From Amoebidium appalachense (Eukaryota; Protista; Ichthyosporea), in contig CAVNZM010000004.1 of the NCBI GenBank assembly GCA_963693365.1, positions 6,264,564 through 6,328,563 of the forward strand: 64,000 nucleotides of DNA. The letters run 5' to 3'. Shown here in pieces: positions 1,391 through 44,882 of this stretch. The notes below the pieces were generated by a model, which had not been told where the DNA came from, did not search any database, and was given only the letters and a program-made list of their open reading frames with translations. The translations under genes and the position numbers were made by a program. Every line of letters begins with the position of its first letter. Within the stretch, counting starts at the first letter, position 1.

Positions 1391-2040
1391 CTATAATTTT
1401 GTAGTGATGTGTTTCTCAAGCCAATCAATACATCTAATAAACAGGTCGTAGTTACGCGTGTTTAGTATAAAATCAAGGATGTTGTAATTTACAGGTAGGC
1501 TATCTTTCTGGGTGTCTGTTGTGAATGTGACGTGTGTGTGTTGCGGTATTATGTGGTCTATCAAACTACATTTGGCGATACATGACCGGTTAAACTGGTG
1601 TGTGTGTGTGTTGTTTGGGCATGCAAATGATGCCACCTTATACTTATTAGATCTCCACTGTATAGCACGTGTACAGTAAAAGCGTGGTAATTGATCAATA
1701 ATACCATCAGCTAGAGAGAGACCAGTTCTACAGGAAAGTAATATGTATTTAGGTGTTATACACTTGCGAGTGCCATATTTGGCAATATGGTTGAGGCGGT
1801 CAGTATATATAAAACGAGACATAAGGCTTAGTTTTTCAAGGTGTATGCTTTCATCGGGTCTAGTGTCGTGTGGTATCTTTTTCCATTTGTTATATTGCGT
1901 GATTATCTTGTGATTGTGTACATGTTTAATAAGTAAGTGGCAGTCCAAAGTCACACACACACTATTGCGGGGTTTATTTGTATTTGTGCCCAGGGGAGAA
2001 GGGGGAGAGAGAGGGGAGGAAAGAGGGGAGAGGTGAGGAG
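1391..2040 (-). pseudogene. C-terminal part of LINE ORF2 in a shifted frame, with a Cys/His cluster
   Basis: The frame of the 189-aa ORF stays open back into the low-complexity tract at ~2000-2040 where the RT frame degenerates; contains FACPNNTHTHQFNRSCIAKC; ends just before the 3' UTR and poly(A). Confidence 0.6.
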
Positions 2041-3590
2041 GGGACAGGTCGGATAGAGAAGAGAGGGTGGGAGGGCAAATACTTCTTTAAGCGGCTTATG
2101 TGCTTATTGAATTTCAGCGCGAGATAGGATACTCTAGCAGCTATTGGGACCAGACCATATATCGAGAGCGTTACAGGCCCAGGTTTACAACAGTTGTTAG
2201 ATAGAAAGGAGGCAACTTCTGCTTCAAGGAAATTTGCCAAGGGTTTAAGCGCTCTAGTTCTCTCTTTCTTGATCCAAGCGGCGAGAAGGGGTAAACCATA
2301 TTCACATGCCGGGAAGACAAAAGTGCGAATAAATGTAAGTCTAATAGAAGGATGGAGGGGTGTGTCTTTAAAAATATTAGCCGAGAAGAAAGCTAACCGC
2401 TTACGAGCCAACTCTACCCTCTTTTCGACCATATGGGGAAACATAACACCAACAGAATCAACCGGAACACCAAGATATTTGTATTCTGGAACTATAGGTA
2501 CAGGTTTAGATGATAATGTAAATGTGTGTAAATTGTTAGCTATATCAGGTACAAGAACACCACATTTGTCTATGTTAAGGATCATAAGGTTTGCCTTGCA
2601 CCACTCTGACACTACATCGAACAATCTTTGCAGGCGTCTAGGGGTACGGGCAAGGAGGGACAGATCATCAGCATAGAGAAGTGCAGGCGGAAAGTTATTA
2701 ATAGGGTCATCGTTTTCGGCGTAAATCTTGACAGCCAAATCATCTATAAATAGGTTAAACAAAAAGGGGCTAAGCAATGAACCCTGCAAGAGACCTCTAG
2801 TACGAGCAAAACCATATGAAAGATGCCCATTAACCACAGCTCTACCATAGGTTTGAGACAAGAGTGCTTCTAACAGAACACCAATGCAGTGTGGTACACC
2901 CCGTGCAGCAAGCTTTTCCCATAGGAGACCAGGGGAGACAGAATCGTAAGCAGTTTTCCAATCAATAAAGCCAACATATTGTGCACCAACTTGCATAGAA
3001 TCGTGCAGTGCCATTATTTGAACATAACATGAATTGTTTTTACGAAAAGCGGATTGGCATGGGTGTATGTGAAGAATAGATTGAAACCTAGGGTGATGTG
3101 CAAATAACCTAAGTAAGCAAGCTTCAAAGAATCTACGAACAACCTGGGTTAGTGTAATGGGGCGAAAGGATGATATGGGGCCCTCAGAGTCCTTCTTAAC
3201 TATGGGGATCACTAAGGTATCTAACCAAGATGACGGGACATGTCCACATTTAACACACCAAGAAAAGAGAGAGCTTAACATGATAGTAAGATCAGGTTTA
3301 ATAGCACGATCACTTTCCTTTTGTGGGTAGGAGGGAACAAGGATTTTAAGAAACCCAGCAGGGAGTCCATCAGGTCCACAAGACTTACTAGAGCTATAAC
3401 TAGATATCACAGACCATATGGCATCGGGACTGAAAAAGGGGAGGATCGATTCTATGGGGATAGATGGGTCTACAGGCCACACAATAGGTTTCTGAGCGGG
3501 GGTCCTATCTTTAAACAGTTCCGAGAAATACTTATCAGAGTCTATGAGGGGGTCTCCAGTGGTATCACCAATAATACGAGCAGGTGGGTG
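1974..3590 (-). pseudogene. LINE ORF2 reverse transcriptase domain (truncated, frameshifted near 2000-2040)
   Basis: 502-aa ORF with canonical non-LTR RT motifs, including YADD; no ATG start; open upstream to 3590 (..DSDKYFSELF..). Confidence 0.85.
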
Positions 3591-4078
3591 TCATTGTGTA
3601 CACCCAAAAGTTGAAGTGTGGTAACCTTTTATTGGCCTTCTATTGACAAAAGGTACGAGGTTGAACCTGTGCTGTTCGGAACGGAAGCGCTACGTAGCAC
3701 AGGTTTTTGCAAATCAGCGCGATTCATATACGTGATAAAAATGAACTGCGTGTTTATCATCCAAGCAATAGTTTTTATTTCAATATATTTAAAATGTGTA
3801 GTTACGTCTGGTTGGAGAAAGTAACCTTTTAGTTTTTGTTCTGATTCGTAGTTTGCCTTTCAAGTGGCTCAGCTCTCGGACCAGCCGACTGGCTGGCTGA
3901 TCATGACTGGTCGGGTCAACTTGAAAGTTGAGGCCGGGCCCAGCCGTGGCCAGCTGACGTGGCCGCTACATTAGCTGCATCAACAGCCTCAGCTGCAGCA
4001 GGTGTGCATGCATGAAACATATGTCAGTCTGTATGGAGCGGAAGGATCGTAGACCGAAATCCCAAGAAAACTTCCAAC

Positions 4079-5506
4079 ATGGGCCTTATAGCGCATGGAC
4101 GTTGGCTTCAGGCACTGTGCCTCTGCCTTTTTTTTCCTGTAATTCTTGCAAGCAGCACACCCATTTCCGACACAGCCATCTCCATCAACAAGGCTCATGT
4201 TGCAGCACGCAGGGCACAGAAGGGCCCAGCCTGCCCAGCTGACTCTGAGGTTGCACGTGTAGAGTCCACGGGCCCCCGCGACCTTACGTGTGCCACGCGT
4301 GTGAGCATAAATCACGAGGGGGTAGTGGTGAATGGCCATGGGAACCAGATGTGCCGCTGTATGGCCACCTACAAGTGTGAGGGCTGCCCTGCCTGCACAC
4401 TCAACGGAAGAGATATTTTCTCACCAGGACCAGGAGTTGCCTCGTGCAAAAAGGTGAGTGGTGAGAGCAGCATTCATGAGTATGCAGTATCTGCTAAGAG
4501 CAAGTATATATCCACATGCTCATTTCTGTGCATGGAACGAACACACCCACCTACCCACCCAGTGACTTTGGCGACCGCTCTTTTTTGGCAACTCCGAGGC
4601 TCCTCGAGAAAAAGCTCCGGAAGTTCTGCAAAGACACCATGGACTTAGAGTGAAGCGACGAGTGCCTCCCCCCCTCCCCCCTCCCCCCCCCCCCCCCCCC
4701 CAACTCCCCCACTTCGCTACCATCAAAAAGCACCACACACCACCAGTACCGGAACCAGCGCCAGCACTCAGCACCACCCCACCACTTTCCGTTTACCCCG
4801 GACCCACCCCCAATGGCACAAACACACACCCCCTCGAACCCCGGGGCCCTGTCCTAGGAAGCCGCTCATCTCAGTTGTTTGTTTGTTTGCACAAGTTTTT
4901 TGACTCAAGCAGCCTTCGAAGCTTCTAATCTCTGTCCAAACCCCCCCCCCCTCCCCCCCCCCCTCCCCCTTCACAAACACACACATTTTGCAGGACACAC
5001 CTGACCCTAGCCCAGCCCCGACTCCTGACCCCCACTCCGGCCGGGGAAGCAACACTGCGGGTGTGATAGCTGGCAGTTTGGGCTCCGTTGCTCTGCTTGG
5101 CATGGCTGGAGGTGGCTATGCATTTTATCGCCGCCACAAAGCTGCAAGAACTTCCGCAAACGGAGAAAACGATCCTCTTTTCCTTCGGAACGCTTTGGGT
5201 AGTTCGCATGATACTTGGGCGCACCATGGATCCTCTGCTGTCAACAACTTGAAACCGAGCAACTCTAGTAATGGCACAAGAGACACACACTTTTCCGGAC
5301 CTTTTGGTGTGGAAAGGGGAACGCTTGGCCAACCGCGAGCTGATTCAATTATACACACCGGGAGGCTTTATCCCAGTTTTTCTGATGCTGCGACCAACAG
5401 CACGATAGACTATGACGCTATGTCTGATATTCCTAGCAGCGCTGGTGTGAGCACTACTACGTATGAGACAGCGGTTACGTCACAGCCTGCGAATGTGACA
5501 CGTTGA
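4079..5506 (+). CDS. Predicted single-pass type I membrane protein (~295 aa); exons 4079-4453 and 4994-5506
   Basis: Signal peptide (MGLIAHGRWLQALCLCLFFPVILAS), Cys-rich ectodomain, AAG|GTGAGT donor and TTTTGCAG| acceptor both in phase 0, Pro-rich stalk, TM helix (AGVIAGSLGSVALLGMAGGGYAFY) followed by RRHK, Ser/Thr-rich tail, TGA stop. Confidence 0.75.
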
Positions 5507-6297
5507 GGTTTGTGGTTGTTTCGGAAATGCATGGAGAGGAGTCGATCAGGCTCTTGACAGGTTCGTTCGTGTCCTGTTGTAGGGATCAGATAAAAACTGA
5601 GACTCCAATCTGCATGTTGTATCTTCTTTATGTTTTAATTGAGCAAGGAAAGGTATTGAGATGACTGGGTGAAGGCTGGGGGTGGGGGGGGGGGGGGGGG
5701 GGGGGGGGAGACGGGGCAGGCTGTATTTACACTTCAAGATAACCCAACTCACAACCAGCACATAGTGAGTGTGGGCGGTTTATTTTGGAACATACCGGGG
5801 ACAAGTACATAAGGCTCGAAGATGACGCCTAAAGCAGCCCTATACATGTCAGAGATTCCTGACCCTGTGGCTATTTGCCAAGTGCCCCCCCCCCCCCCCC
5901 CCCCCCCCCCCAAAAAAAAGATCGTTGATACCCGTCTGTAAAATCAGACACATTAGTGTGCATGCAGCACACACACACACACACGCACACGCACACGCAC
6001 GCACACACACAAACACCTACTCTCTCTCTCCCTCCCTCCCTCCCTTTCTCTCTCCCATCCCCTTACCTCTGCCAGTCTCTGCTCCTCCCGTCTTTCCTCC
6101 TCTCTGCGGAGCGCTGATCCACTACATATTACAACCACCCACCCGAACATGTTCTGGCGCAGTGCACTTTTTGTGCTAAGATTTATTGTCTCTGCAGTTC
6201 ATCACAAGAAAGCGTAGAAGGGGCCTGATCATGCAACCACAACACGTCGTGTTTTAATTTCGTGTGTTCTTTCCGTGTTCACTTCGACGCCAGTTAT

Positions 6298-6368
6298 GGC
6301 CTCGCATCAAACCACACCACCAGCCTAACGCTCTTTTTGTTGTGGTCGTCATAAGAAAAAACACAGGC
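6298..6368 (-). promoter_or_regulatory. SECIS element (type II) in the 3' UTR of the minus-strand DUF3253-like gene
   Basis: Minus strand: GCCTGTG..CTT-ATGAC-GACCACAACA-AAAAG-AGC-GTTAG-GCT-GG-TGGTGTGGTT-TGAT-GCGAGGC. AUGA/GA core at 6352-6349 and 6308-6307; helix II GACCACA:TGTGGTT; unpaired A-run; apical mini-stem; AATAAA further downstream at 6187-6182. Confidence 0.75.
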
Positions 6369-6539
6369 AGAGCGACTCGAAATTAATATGGGAGCAGCAG
6401 ATGTAACATGTACTCAATCAATCGAAAAAGAAAGAAGCAGGGGGTAGACAGGCACTCTAAAGGGAGACTGTTATAAACCAATATACCAGCAGCAAAAAAT
6501 AGCTTTCAGGGGTTACAACACTCGGACAGAAGACTTCGC

Positions 6540-7001
6540 CTAGCCATCTGTCTTCCTTCTCTTCTTGTAAGTGGAAGCTGCACTGCTGCTTTCTCGACCC
6601 TTATTCACACTACGCCATTTAGCCTTTTGGAGTGTTTCCTTGTTGAATAGTCCTTCAGCCCTTTCATCTCTCAAGCTATCATCCAATGTTTTTTTCGTAC
6701 TTGCCACCCGAATGGGACCCCGGACACCACGGGTTACACGGACACCCTTCTGTGTAACTACCACCTCGTTCTTCTCTTCAAGTTCCCATACAATCTCACG
6801 TGTATGCTCCATATACCCACGCCACCACTCTCCAGAAACAGCATTCTTATCTACATCTTTCACTTTTCCAGATGTGATGTTTTTCTGGACGGTGCGTGGT
6901 ATCAAGCTTGGTCATACAGTAGATGGATGGACCCTCTGGGTTGTCTCGAGCAGCTGTTGGCGTAGAAGTTGATCTACCAGAGAAGGAGAGAGATCAGACA
7001 T
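6540..7001 (-). CDS. DUF3253-family (winged-helix-like) protein, putative selenoprotein, 153 aa, Sec at codon 30
   Basis: ATG at 7001; MSDLSPSLVDQLLRQQLLETTQRVHPSTV-U(TGA 6914-6912)-PSLIPR...WWRGYMEHTREIVWELEEKNEVVVTQKGVRVTRGVRGPIRV matches the DUF3253 pattern (TICPS...WR..M...R.....L...G.I.I.QKG......RGPIR); basic C-terminal tail KKRRK; SECIS-like hairpin downstream. Confidence 0.85.
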
Positions 7002-7411
7002 CTTGTTATGCAAATCACTATACACAATTTACGTAGAAGAGCCTAACATGCTCCATACAGTTTTAGACTGTAGTCTTCAAATCAGCAACAACACATTTCG
7101 TCTTCCCAATCGTTCCTTCCGAAAGTGTGCATGTGCTTTTCATCCTGAAACAGTCATGACCTTGTTTTGCGGCGAAACGCCAAATCCAAAGCAAACGATG
7201 ATTGTTTACGCACGATTTTTCAGGCTGTGATTGCACAGGAACGTATCATAAGCCTTTATATGGCTAATATCAGCAAGAGGCGTCGCTGCTTTTCGGCGAC
7301 GGAAGCTCTCGGAACCGGAGATACCATTGCAGCAGATAGCGCAGTTTCAAAGTTGGTGCAGCGAACTTGAAAAGACAGCAGCAAGAACAATCATAGTACT
7401 CACATCTTACC
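7002..7411. promoter_or_regulatory. Short intergenic region, probable bidirectional promoter and 5' UTRs
   Basis: 410 bp between two divergent ATGs; free of the microsatellites seen elsewhere in the window. Confidence 0.55.
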
Positions 7412-7933
7412 ATGGCTGGTCTGGAAAATGGAAAACTTGACGAGCTCCTGCGCGAGCAGGTGCTTGAGTCCACCGCCAGAGTTTTTCCCTCCTCCCTTTG
7501 ATACAACACCGTTACGGCCCACCTGAAGAAAAAGATAGCTTCTGGCATGGTCAAGGGGGTCGAGCCGTCCGTTGTTACCGGGGGGTGGAAAGGTGCCATT
7601 GGGCGGACTAAAGAAGCAATTTGGCAGCTTGTGGAGGAGGGAAAAGTGATTGCTCTTCAAAACGGGAAAAGCGTGAAGAGAGGTACTCCCGGGCGCATCA
7701 TGGTGAAGGGCACTGGTGGGGCGACGGCTAACGGGGAGGAAGCTAAAGGGAAAGCTAGCAGCAAAAAGGTTAACACCGACAAGGCTGATGATGGAGCCAA
7801 AGGAAAAGCCTCCAGCAAGAAATCTGAGAGCGAAGAGACTAATAAGGAGACAAGTAAGGGTAGCAAGAGAAAGGCTGCCTCTGTAGAGAAAGAAGCTGCC
7901 GCTACGAGGAGTAAGCGAACAAGGAGGCAGTAG
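7412..7933 (+). CDS. Divergent DUF3253-like paralogue, putative selenoprotein, 173 aa, Sec at codon 30
   Basis: ATG at 7412; MAGLENGKLDELLREQVLESTARVFPSSL-U(TGA 7499-7501)-YNTVTAHLKKKIASGMVKG...WKGAIGRTKEAIWQLVEEGKVIALQNGKSVKRGTPGRIMV aligns almost ungapped with the minus-strand gene; Lys/Ala/Ser-rich tail; SECIS downstream. Confidence 0.85.
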
Positions 7934-7969
7934 GGGGTATGTGGGTAGCAGGGGTTGGCAGAAAGAAGA

Positions 7970-8050
7970 GGGCTGGTCGAAGAATCGAATGAGAACTGCA
8001 ACTCAAACCTGTGCTATAGGGGGTGGCGGTTTGATGCTGAGGGCTAGTCC
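7970..8050 (+). promoter_or_regulatory. SECIS element (type II) in the 3' UTR of the plus-strand DUF3253-like gene
   Basis: GGGCTGGTC..GA-ATGAG-AACTGCAACTC-AAA-CCTGT-GCT-ATAGG-GGGTGGCGGTT-TGAT-GCTGA-GGGCTAGTCC. AUGA at 7989-7992; 11-bp helix II with one mismatch; AAA at 8005-8007; 5-bp apical stem; GA at 8033-8034; 9-bp helix I; AATAAA at 8122-8127. Confidence 0.85.
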
Positions 8051-8286
8051 TTGGGATGCTGAGGCTATGCAACTGTTCTTTTTATAGACACCAACTCTGC
8101 ACGTACTCTCTGTATGCTCTCAATAAACATGTGTGATGGTGTCAGCTTTCAATGAGACAAAGACAATTTTTTTGGTCAGCCGGTGCCTCTCTGGGTATAT
8201 GCGCTCCTTGCGTGCGTGGGATGGGTTGCTTTTTCGCGCGCTTGATAGAGGGCGAATAGAGAGAGAGCGAGAGAGAGAGAGAGAGA

Positions 8287-9579: not shown

Positions 9580-24633
<15,054 letters not shown>

Positions 24634-42397: not shown

Positions 42398-44447
42398 TCA
42401 GCACATGTTGAGCATCCCCACGGCCTTGGTGAAGAAAGAGGCAGACAGGGCCTTGGTGAACATGTCGGCCTTGTTGTCAGCAGAAGCCACCGGGACCACA
42501 GTGATGTTGCCCAGCAGGTGATGTTCCTTGACGGAGCAGTAGCGGACGTCGATGTGCTTGGTCTTGGGCTTAACCCCCAGGGTGTCCAGCAGGGCCCGGG
42601 CAGACTCATTGTCCCCATGGATGGGCACCGGGGCCGTGCCCATGTACTCGCCCCCCGTCGGACTGAAACACCTGCATGGGAACACCGTGTTGGGTAACCG
42701 CCGCCTTGTGGTACGTCACATATGCAGCCAGTGTGTCCGACTTCTTGACGAGGGGCACGGCCGTGGTGTGGCCGGTGAATTCGTCGTGGAACGTCGCCAA
42801 GTACTGAGCACCACCGATCGCGGGAGGGAAGGGGCCGCTGATGTCGCTGTGAACCTTGGCTAGGACCCGGGGAGCTTGGCTAGTTGATTCGGAGAAGGCA
42901 ACACGGTGGGCTTTGCCGAGGGCACAGGGCTCACACACACCCGGAGACTTGGCACCGCCACCCACCAACAGGCCTGCAGACTTGATGACCGAGCGTACAG
43001 CGTCAATGCCAGCATGGCCCAGACGGTAGTGCCACGTGTTGAGGTCGGCAGTAACCTTGAGGATACGCGGAGCAGTGGTGGTTTGGGCGTCCGGGGTTGT
43101 GTCCGCGCGCAGAAGAGACACCGCCATGTGGTACAGCTTGGTGCCGACAGCCGAGCCGGTGGCCAGAATTTGATCGCCGTAGCACAACTTAACGCCGCCG
43201 CGGGTGTCAAAGCGGGGTAAAACACCGTTGGTAGTTGCCGTGAACACACTGATGAGAGTGTCGGGGATGGAGGGCACGTAGAGTACATCCGTCAGCTGAT
43301 GCACCGCAGTAACGCCGTCGATGGTGCTGGAAAAGAACACGTCGCCCACCCCAAGCACTGCACATGCACCCTTGTCGGCTACTTGGACCGTGGAGTAAGG
43401 CGCCGCACGCATGTTGATGAACACATCGGGCCGGGGGCACACATGGTCAGTGGCTCCAGAGTCGAGGAGCACCTTGTTGGTGCCACAGTCGTTGCTAGAC
43501 ATGAGGAAAGCCCGGGGAGCGTCAGCCCCCCCCTTGCACTGTGCCGTAGTGTGGGTAGTAGAGGCAGGGTGGTTGATGCAGGACCCAGGCAGGAGGGGAC
43601 CACCCTTAGGTTTGCGGCCGTTGGCACGGTTGCCCCCCTTGCACATGGCGGTAGTGTGACTGGTAGACAGTGGGTGGTTGACGCAGGAACCCTTGGGGTA
43701 GGTGCTGGCACGGTTGTTGCCAGAGTTGCTGTGTTGGCCGTTGCCGTTGGGGCACTGAGACTTGATGTGGCCTGGTTTGCCGCAGCCGTGGCAGATGACA
43801 GGTTGAGGAGCCCGTGTGGTGAAGGCGGCCGGCCCGGAGCTGGTAGTCACACGTGCACGTGGGTGGCTGGTCTCATATGCCCGTAGCTGTTGGAGGAGGC
43901 CCATCACGGTAGGCTTGGGTGTCATCTTGTAGGCAATTACAGGCATTTCGTAGTAAGGCACCTTGCCGAGGTCGTTGGTGAGCTTGGTCAGCACTTGAGC
44001 ATCACCAATTTGTGTGCCGTAATCGGCCAGGCGCCGCACGTAGCCGCGGAGTTTCATGGCGTATTTCGTCGCGGTGTCCGTAGGTTCAGGCGTAGAATTC
44101 ATGTACAGCCCGATAAGGTCGTACTGATTGGCCTCAGATTGCTCCAGGTAGTGGGCAGATAGGGCCGACCATATCTCCGCAGGTGTGGTGGTGCGTGTTA
44201 ACCCTAGGATACAACGCACGTCAATCGAGAGTGCTTGCCACAGGTAGGAACGGGCAGTGTCGACCTGTTCACGGGTAGCCGGGTGCTCCGTACTGGGCGC
44301 GATGGTGTGGAGAAGACCAGCACCAGAAAGCTGGACATACATGGTTTCGGCCCATGTGTGGTAGTCCGTGCCTGAATCATTATCAATGCCAGTGAAGAGA
44401 GGGATGTCGACCTTGAACTTGATGGAATCATTACGTGAGGGGCCCAT
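42398..44447 (-). pseudogene. Copia gag-pol with a large internal deletion (RT absent)
   Basis: Gag with CCHC knuckle CHGCGKPGHIKSQC; protease LLDSGATDH; integrase Zn finger WHYRLGH..CEPCALGK and core VHSDISGPF..FQSDGG; jumps at ~42630-42655 to the RNase H C-terminus (GDNESA..KTKHIDVRY..ADMFTKAL); indel in a G-run at ~42651-42657. Confidence 0.9.
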
Positions 44448-44452
44448 AACCC

Positions 44453-44882
44453 TGTTGGAAGTAGAGTCCGCTGTGACTAGGGTCGTCGTGGCGCGCTTGG
44501 GCGCTGACCCGTTTTTTACTGCTTTCAGTGTGTTAACTCCATGACTGAACTCCATGACTGAACTCCATGACTGAACTCCATGACTGAACTCCATGACTGA
44601 ACTCCATGACTGCACCTGGCAGAGACGTGGCTTATATACCCGTGGGGCAGCAGTCTGGAATGTAATCCGGATGCCAGGTGCTAATCGGATTGGTTACTTT
44701 CATTTAGAGATCTCTGGGACCAGTGAACCAATCGTTTGCAGTCAAAACACAATTGGCAACATTCCTCAACTATGCAGATGTGCATGTGGTGATCGAGTGT
44801 CAGCGTGTGTCTGTGTACACGGAACCAATTGTAAAGCTAACATACACATATTGTGGAGTGAGCGTAAGTCTGCACTCCAACA
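44453..44882 (-). repeat. LTR-B, internal copy (430 bp), containing about 6 copies of a 13-bp unit CAGTCATGGAGTT
   Basis: TGTTGGA..TCCAACA termini; inverted near-identical match to 47700-48103 and 48324-48727; PPT before it and PBS after it on the minus strand. Confidence 0.9.

What the first reader, a model, noticed from the sequence alone, without database searches (positions are those of the whole stretch)
6298..8050. Head-to-head pair of candidate novel selenoproteins: DUF3253-family genes, each with in-frame TGA at codon 30 and its own SECIS
Seen in sequence: two divergent, intronless paralogues (7001->6540 and 7412->7933) with clearly diverged sequences both have TGA at codon 30 (RVHPSTV-U-PS; RVFPSSL-U-YN). 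Protein similarity continues on both sides of the TGA (DQLLRQQLLETTQRV vs DELLREQVLESTARV upstream; W....TRE..W.L.E...V...Q.G..V.RG..G.I.V downstream). Each 3' UTR has an AUGA/AA/GA hairpin before AATAAA. Established knowledge: DUF3253 (PF11625) has a conserved Cys in a T-I-C-P-S motif at this position, and a Cys/TGA alignment plus a 3' UTR SECIS is the standard signature of eukaryotic selenoproteins. Inference: these encode Sec. I do not recall DUF3253 among described selenoprotein families, and a winged-helix-like fold is unusual among them. Automated annotation would truncate both genes.
Basis: partly seen in the sequence, partly recalled or inferred. Interest (0 to 1): 0.95.

Follow-up and report, generated by a model that had tools for sequence, protein, structure and literature searches.

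The report
Twin winged-helix selenoprotein genes
Two back-to-back genes of an unidentified eukaryote each carry a 'stop' codon where their relatives have an invariant cysteine, plus a matching RNA hairpin, so they likely make selenium-containing, predicted DNA-binding proteins of a family missing from the selenoprotein lists checked and possibly linked to DNA-damage repair.

Summary
Observation confirmed. Two divergent, intronless DUF3253 (PF11625) paralogues have TGA at codon 30, where 130 of 130 aligned homologues have Cys. Each 3' UTR holds a type II SECIS-like hairpin. These are the only two strict-pattern hits in 128 kb, and they align ungapped with 5 of 14 pairs changed on both sides. 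Transcript-like contigs from two studies keep TGA and hairpin unspliced; one shows non-templated poly(A). TGA is not generally reassigned here (0 of 40 conserved W/C codons). Selenocysteine is very likely (~0.9). The genome's Sec machinery could not be checked, and no selenium was measured. The family is still absent from the lists I could read. The predicted fold is a winged helix, and bacterial homologues sit beside photolyase and other repair genes more often than chance. A nuclear DNA-damage role for the selenol is inferred, not shown. Gene 2 lost nine near-invariant residues yet kept TGA and SECIS.

The parts
6540..7001 (-). Gene 1 CDS, 153 aa: DUF3253 winged-helix domain (about residues 6-102) plus basic tail; no Cys codon
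6912..6914 (-). Gene 1 in-frame TGA, codon 30, aligned with the family's invariant Cys
6293..6362 (-). SECIS-like element 1 (type II; core AUGA 6352-6349, 3' GA 6308-6307), 560 nt after the TGA
6155..6187 (-). Gene 1 AATAAA (6187-6182) and poly(A) site (about 6155)
7002..7212 (-). Longest observed gene 1 5' leader, with six upstream ATGs, each closed before the main ATG
7213..7367 (.). Gap between the two divergent transcripts; inferred bidirectional promoter
   Evidence: no cover at 7236-7306 in X10, X11, X6; covered in X14
7368..7411 (+). Gene 2 5' leader, no upstream ATG
7412..7933 (+). Gene 2 CDS, 173 aa: diverged DUF3253 domain plus Lys/Ser/Glu-rich basic tail; no Cys codon
7499..7501 (+). 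Gene 2 in-frame TGA, codon 30
7988..8039 (+). SECIS-like element 2 (type II; core AUGA 7989-7992), 488 nt after the TGA
8122..8152 (+). Gene 2 AATAAA (8122-8127) and poly(A) site (about 8152)

Best explanation
Two paralogous genes are transcribed back to back as unspliced RNAs that keep an in-frame UGA at codon 30 and a SECIS-like 3' hairpin, which likely recodes the UGA as selenocysteine in a predicted winged-helix protein that would act in the nucleus, probably in the response to DNA damage. SHOWN: the UGA, the hairpins, their presence in transcript-like contigs, and the alignment with the family's one invariant Cys. INFERRED from the established eukaryotic pathway (SECIS, SBP2, eEFSec, Sec-tRNA): Sec insertion, about 0.9. 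PREDICTED: the fold, with residue 30 just before helix 2. INFERRED, weaker: the basic tails are nuclear signals, and the lone selenol is a reactive nucleophile or damage/redox sensor carried to DNA by the winged helix (DNA-damage role about 0.5). Gene 2, which lost the conserved arginines and the C-P-S-E context, would keep the selenol chemistry with a changed partner. The pair arose by a local inverted duplication that copied the SECIS too.
For: Codon 30 is Cys in 130 of 130 aligned homologues and the only Cys in 96 of them. Over 99 aligned codons synonymous sites are saturated (pS 0.78) while pN is 0.40, and both TGAs are kept. The two SECIS align ungapped: 25 of 28 cells pair, 5 of 14 pairs changed on both sides, 16 of 500 shuffles as high, slid controls 32-50% paired. 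The best local alignment of the two 3' UTRs is the SECIS itself (20 of 2000 shuffles as high). Contigs of X10/X11 (one sample, study P4) and X6 (study P3) cover each gene as one piece with 0 differences, 0 gaps and no joints; X6 ends in non-templated A runs. 0 of 40 conserved W/C codons in 10 TSP1 repeats of the window are TGA. 5 of 5 metagenome loci found have TGA at the same codon and a GUGA-type hairpin after the stop, matching the Ostreococcus candidate with a grade A SECIS. Models: pLDDT 94.5 and 82.6; best match 2NS0, Z 11.8, rmsd 1.8, 80 aligned. Neighbours: PF03441 in 3 of 50 loci against 0.155 expected, P 5.6e-4; in a second set 7 of 40 loci had a photolyase-family gene adjacent and 3 more had UDG, Fpg/Nei or a LigD domain.
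Against: Both SECIS score below Rfam's cut-off, and only two sequences underlie the covariation count. Gene 2 is below the Pfam cut-off and differs at 9 near-invariant positions. Gene 1's leader has six upstream ATGs. In run X14 (organism C) all 4 gene 1 coding differences are non-synonymous, and a 1-base insertion at 7817 would cut off gene 2's tail (one contig, depth 8.85). The 130 homologues were top hits to profiles containing the Cys, so its invariance may be overstated. Most bacterial neighbours are unrelated to repair, 6 of the 7 photolyase neighbours in set 2 are DUF2256 fusions (the link may belong to DUF2256), and the photolyase family was chosen after seeing the data. There is no CxxU redox motif.
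Confidence: 0.8

Rival explanations
1. Sec is inserted, but the proteins are redox- or metal-sensing regulators or small thiol-type oxidoreductases with no tie to DNA repair.
For: Winged-helix neighbours in the fold searches include Fur, PadR and MarR regulators. Bacterial neighbours also include flavin oxidoreductases, GST, catalase and rhodanese. Most selenoproteins are thought to be redox proteins (PMC13188914 passage).
Against: Repair genes recur next to the family in two sets and several phyla. The eukaryotic forms have a single Sec and no partner Cys, apart from the vicinal Cys in the algal form.
Confidence: 0.35
2. Gene 1 is the selenoprotein and gene 2 is a decaying copy, or both are transcribed pseudogenes sharing an old nonsense mutation.
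For: Gene 2's loss of family-invariant residues; the tail frameshift and non-synonymous changes in X14; TGC/TGT to TGA is one base.
Against: Both frames stay open for 123 and 143 codons after the TGA although synonymous sites are saturated. Both hairpins are kept by compensatory change. Gene 2 still models as the same fold. The same TGA occurs in an unrelated alga.
Confidence: 0.07
3. UGA is read as Cys, Trp or another residue by a changed code or leaky read-through, or translation starts at a downstream ATG (M64 in gene 1, M46 in gene 2).
For: Sec machinery not verified, as no genome is held; downstream ATGs exist.
Against: 0 of 40 conserved W/C codons are TGA. The 29 upstream codons are conserved between paralogues and with the family. 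SECIS-like hairpins would be unnecessary.
Confidence: 0.04

Closest known systems
Unnamed Ostreococcus lucimarinus Seblastian candidate (PMC3753652, supplement S5, index 15, chr12 529744-530025, hScore 7.56, SECIS grade A)
   Same: Same family, TGA at the same Cys, single exon, 3' SECIS, insertion after helix 2, basic C-terminal tail.
   Different: Single gene with a vicinal Cys-Sec pair and a GUGA-type SECIS; no EST class is given in its entry; about 30% identical to gene 1; does not group with the window's genes (p-AU 0.021). Here there is a duplicated pair with transcript support.
DUF3253 / PF11625, structure PDB 2NS0 (Rhodococcus RHA04536)
   Same: Same predicted winged-helix fold (Z 11.8; Foldseek E 2e-5; profile E 8.5e-25) and, in gene 1, 13 of the near-invariant residues.
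   Different: Bacterial and fungal members have Cys; no TGA at that site in 123 matches from 119 of 1354 bacterial genomes searched. The window's proteins add a 15-20 residue insertion and a basic tail. No function found in print.
[quoted passage not shown]
   Same: A selenoprotein tied to DNA repair (PMC7539508 passages; PMC13188914 Table 1). PF01035 genes lie directly downstream of DUF3253 in L014 and L046.
   Different: Different family; no PF01035 match in the window's proteins. No alkyl-transfer activity is shown for DUF3253.
Type II eukaryotic SECIS (Rfam RF00031)
   Same: AUGA/GA core, 11-pair helix II frame, unpaired AAA, apical mini-helix.
   Different: Scores of 27.8 and 19.6 bits are under the 35-bit cut-off; untested in a reporter.
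Z-alpha winged-helix domains (ZBP1, ADAR1)
   Same: Next-best fold matches, Z 7.1-8.4.
   Different: Tied with E2F/DP and unrelated regulators, 6-14% identity; this shows a common fold only.

Membership tests
Eukaryotic selenoprotein gene | In-frame UGA aligned with a conserved Cys, with similarity on both sides | tested here: met
   Cys in 130 of 130 homologues
Eukaryotic selenoprotein gene | SECIS in the 3' UTR, same strand, inside the transcript | tested here: met
   structure and covariation met, Rfam cut-off not reached
Eukaryotic selenoprotein gene | UGA present in the mature RNA | tested here: met
   X10, X11, X6 contigs, 0 differences, no joints. The RNA status of these runs is inferred from poly(A) ends and the uncovered gap, not from their record
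Eukaryotic selenoprotein gene | UGA not otherwise reassigned in the organism | tested here: met
   0 of 40 codons, from one repeat family in one window
Eukaryotic selenoprotein gene | Sec machinery (tRNA-Sec, eEFSec, SBP2, SPS2, PSTK, SecS) in the genome | not testable with these tools
   no genome held; no tRNA in the window
Eukaryotic selenoprotein gene | Selenium incorporated at the UGA | not testable with these tools
   needs 75Se labelling or mass spectrometry
DUF3253 (PF11625) | Score above Pfam cut-off, gene 1 | tested here: met
   51.4 bits against 22.1
DUF3253 (PF11625) | Score above Pfam cut-off, gene 2 | tested here: not met
   16.4 bits. It is filed as a diverged homologue through gene 1, hhalign probability 77, E 1.9e-5 and fold
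DUF3253 (PF11625) | Winged-helix fold as in 2NS0 | tested here: met
   predicted only: (gene 1); same secondary-structure order in gene 2 (not fold-searched)
Thioredoxin-type redox selenoproteins | CxxU/UxxC motif or thioredoxin fold | tested here: not met
   no Cys in either protein; fold is winged helix
MDP / O6-alkylguanine alkyltransferase (PF01035) | PF01035 domain | tested here: not met
   only PF11625 at E up to 1
Z-alpha domains | Z-DNA/Z-RNA recognition residues and binding | tested here: inconclusive
   Z 8.4, tied with unrelated winged helices; residues not mapped

The most novel reading that the evidence does not exclude
DUF3253 is a stand-alone DNA-damage 'suicide' or sensor domain whose single Cys takes an adduct from DNA (working like the Ada N-terminal acceptor, recalled), and eukaryotes upgraded it to selenocysteine at least twice independently. 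That would make a nuclear winged-helix selenoprotein family, with gene 2 showing the selenol kept after the DNA-facing arginines were replaced.
Probability: 0.2. Interest if true: 0.85.

Novelty: new variant of a known kind. Interest (0 to 1): 0.6.

Why it matters
It turns an unnamed, unvalidated 2013 candidate into a family seen in two distant eukaryotic lineages, now with transcript support and a duplicated, covarying SECIS. A winged-helix fold without a redox motif is unlike the families in the lists I read. Sec marks residue 30 as chemically reactive, which is the first functional handle I could find for a family with more than 7,600 database members and no paper in the library searched. 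Gene callers would truncate both genes. The recoding mechanism itself is ordinary.

Tried and rejected
Single-protein word search with gene 1: no hit. P0013, a dystrophin-like repeat hit, was dropped from the 18 phmmer hits as spurious. Viral contigs: one weak unrelated hit (L001) and two blanks. Metagenome scan with gene 1 alone: nothing; so no orthologue close to the window's genes was found, and these scans see only near-exact 8-residue words. NCBIfam: nothing relevant. Bacterial Sec forms: none in 123 matches; one weak match has a TGA elsewhere, and five partial matches showed no TGA at the Cys. Only 13 candidates per genome were scored in the 401-genome searches, and the phyla are known only by their centre genomes. 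An N-terminal alkyltransferase in the algal loci: none evident in the upstream frames of 4 of 5 loci, judged by eye. Lobanov 2007 'hypothetical proteins 1-3' lie on O. lucimarinus chr 1, 15 and 8, not chr 12, so they are not this gene. The algal 'Hypo' family could not be identified because that supplement was too large to read; it may bear on novelty. No conserved operon across phyla. The organism was not identified: a TSP1 exon gave only 24-29% full-length hits. Literature searches without a description of DUF3253 selenoproteins.

Full report
Observation. The two ORFs are present as stated: gene 1 at 7001->6540 (-), 153 codons, and gene 2 at 7412->7933 (+), 173 codons, head to head, each with a single in-frame TGA at codon 30. 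Read through, they are 36% identical over 139 residues, E 6e-26, and there is no third copy in the window. Gene 1 matches PF11625 across the TGA (E 1.3e-13); gene 2 matches weakly (E 0.011, below cut-off) but aligns to a bacterial-type profile across codon 30 (hhalign probability 77).

The codon sits on the family's invariant cysteine. A phmmer search gave 18 hits, 17 of them true family members (P0013 dropped), and a profile search gave 7,659 hits among 7,998 scored, of which the best 120 were listed. In the 130 distinct homologues aligned, position 30 is Cys in all 130 and is the only Cys in 96. These are top hits to Cys-containing queries, so the figure is an upper bound. Gene 1 keeps P31, S32, R36, W60, R61, M64, R68, Q84, G86 and G95-P-I-R98. 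Gene 2 has replaced nine of the near-invariant residues (P31, S32, E33, R36, R61, M64, R68, P96, R98). Between the paralogues synonymous sites are saturated (pS 0.78) and pN is 0.40 over 99 codons, so the frame on both sides of the TGA is under purifying selection.

SECIS. Rfam SECIS_1 matches each 3' UTR on the coding strand, at 27.8 and 19.6 bits, under the cut-off of 35. My strict pattern found two sites in 128 kb, these two, against 0.16 per shuffle (thresholds set after seeing the hairpins). The best local alignment of the two UTRs (385 and 219 nt) is the hairpin (20 of 2000 shuffles as high). The two hairpins align without gaps. On a 14-pair structure that I named, 25 of 28 cells pair, 5 pairs are changed on both sides, including all 3 of the apical mini-helix, and 16 of 500 shuffles do as well (two sequences only). 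Folding z-scores alone are modest, -0.85 to -2.68 for the three hairpin-bearing fragments.

Transcripts. No listed run is on record as RNA. Of four runs laid, X10 and X11 (one sample, study P4) and X6 (study P3) each gave two contigs, one per gene, spanning about 6155-7212 and 7368-8152 at most, with no differences, gaps or joints and no cover at 7236-7306. X6 ends in A runs plus adapter where the genome has none, 25-30 nt after AATAAA. I read these as polyadenylated, unspliced RNAs containing TGA and SECIS. X14 (organism C) covers the gap like DNA and keeps gene 2's TGA; its gene 1 contig ends a few bases past the TGA. It shows four non-synonymous changes in gene 1, one extra base in SECIS 1's mini-helix, and a 1-base insertion that would end gene 2 in its tail. 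These count against strong constraint on the tail. Gene 1's leader has six upstream ATGs, so its translation may be low or regulated.

Alternatives to Sec. In 10 TSP1 repeats of the window, 0 of 40 conserved Trp/Cys codons are TGA. No genome is held, so the Sec machinery is unchecked, and the organism is unidentified. In the gene tree the pair is sister (91/91) and lies on the side of fungal homologues (92/95), which fits an opisthokont protist but does not show it.

Other Sec-type members and prior print. A metagenome scan returned five loci, all with TGA at the same codon, a GUGA-type hairpin 9-12 nt after the stop and a basic tail; Rfam scored the hairpin in 1 of 5. They match an entry in the Seblastian supplement (PMC3753652; I read passages and supplement parts 4-6 of 72, and searched file 2): O. 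lucimarinus chr12, hScore 7.56, SECIS grade A, fourth in a list of 186, described only by a Mycobacterium hypothetical-protein query. 'DUF3253' does not occur in that file. It is not one of the three hypothetical proteins of PMC2375036 (passages and supplement search). PF11625 does not occur in the 2026 review of 119 prokaryotic families (PMC13188914, passages). PMC7539508 (section 5 and passages) names no such family, but its 'Hypo' family could not be inspected. PMC6627142 and PMC6188563 (passages) added nothing on the family. 'DUF3253' and 'PF11625' give 0 papers. Earlier notes of this scan report DUF3253-Sec and two-Sec alkyltransferase-DUF3253 fusions in marine protists; I did not verify the fusions. 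Holding all four Sec rows together is rejected at p-AU 0.021 (46 rows, 100 columns, long branch for gene 2; 42 of 130 homologues used), a hint of independent Cys-to-Sec gains. No TGA was found at the site in 123 matches from 119 of 1,354 bacterial genomes.

Structure and function. AlphaFold models (Cys in place of Sec) give a three-helix winged helix, pLDDT 94.5 and 82.6, with residue 30 just before helix 2. The best match is 2NS0 (Z 11.8); Z-alpha, E2F/DP and bacterial regulators follow at Z 8.4 or less. That the start of helix 2 faces the DNA backbone in such folds is recalled, not measured here. Both proteins are basic and end in K/R clusters, as does the algal form. For function I read bacterial neighbourhoods. 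In 58 loci (80 fetched, 22 dropped as same-genus repeats) photolyase-family genes occur in 4 (L032, L053, L064, L065), UDG directly downstream in 2 related loci, O6-alkyltransferase directly downstream in 2 related loci; a plasmid copy follows a 3-methyladenine glycosylase (2 of 6 plasmid hits viewed). For PF03441, 3 of 50 loci compares with 0.155 expected (chosen after the fact). In 40 further loci, partly picked for long open frames, 7 had an adjacent photolyase-family gene and 3 had UDG, Fpg/Nei or a LigD domain; 15 were DUF2256 fusions, including 6 of the 7. So the family leans towards DNA-damage and light-stress contexts, but most neighbours are unrelated and part of the signal may belong to DUF2256.

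Verdict. A real pair of probable selenoprotein genes using the ordinary SECIS route (Sec about 0.9). The family is practically undescribed but not unseen, and its role in DNA damage is a lead at about even odds. Interest 0.6; new variant of a known kind.

Noticed in passing
window 1974-3590 (-): 538-codon reverse transcriptase ORF (RVT_1, E 2e-28), GC 0.44, about 2.6 kb from gene 1's 3' end; the first 4 kb are 44-46% GC against mostly 48-61% elsewhere. Whether it bears on the genes being intronless is untested.
   Followed up: no
window 42606-44693 (-): Copia-type LTR gag-pol ORF (gag, zinc knuckle, Pol beta-barrel, pre-integrase).
   Followed up: no
window about 31300-63500 (-): Many TSP1/spondin repeat exons, at least 10 repeats by a strict motif, probably one or more very large extracellular proteins.
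   Followed up: partly
window 11164-12114 and 22414-24160 (+): PX-domain and ankyrin-repeat exons amid dinucleotide-repeat introns.
   Followed up: no
window 4016-5506 (+): Two frames that look like parts of a secreted, Cys-rich single-pass membrane protein (by eye), convergent on gene 1; no Pfam match.
   Followed up: no
L009, L011, L016, L019, L033: DUF3253 in one open frame with DUF4385 in five Myxococcota-type loci; also with TfoX_C in L015.
   Followed up: no
L029, L078, L114, L116, L118, L120, L121: DUF599 gene directly upstream of DUF3253 on the same strand, often with DUF218 convergent downstream.
   Followed up: no
L052, L053, L071, L074, L079, L081, L101: Flavin amine-oxidase-like genes recur near DUF3253; these resemble light or singlet-oxygen stress clusters (recalled).
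   Followed up: no
L003 versus L006, codons 1-151: Algal variants differ by 11 synonymous and 12 non-synonymous codons, keep the TGA, and have changed bases in the SECIS apical part.
   Followed up: partly
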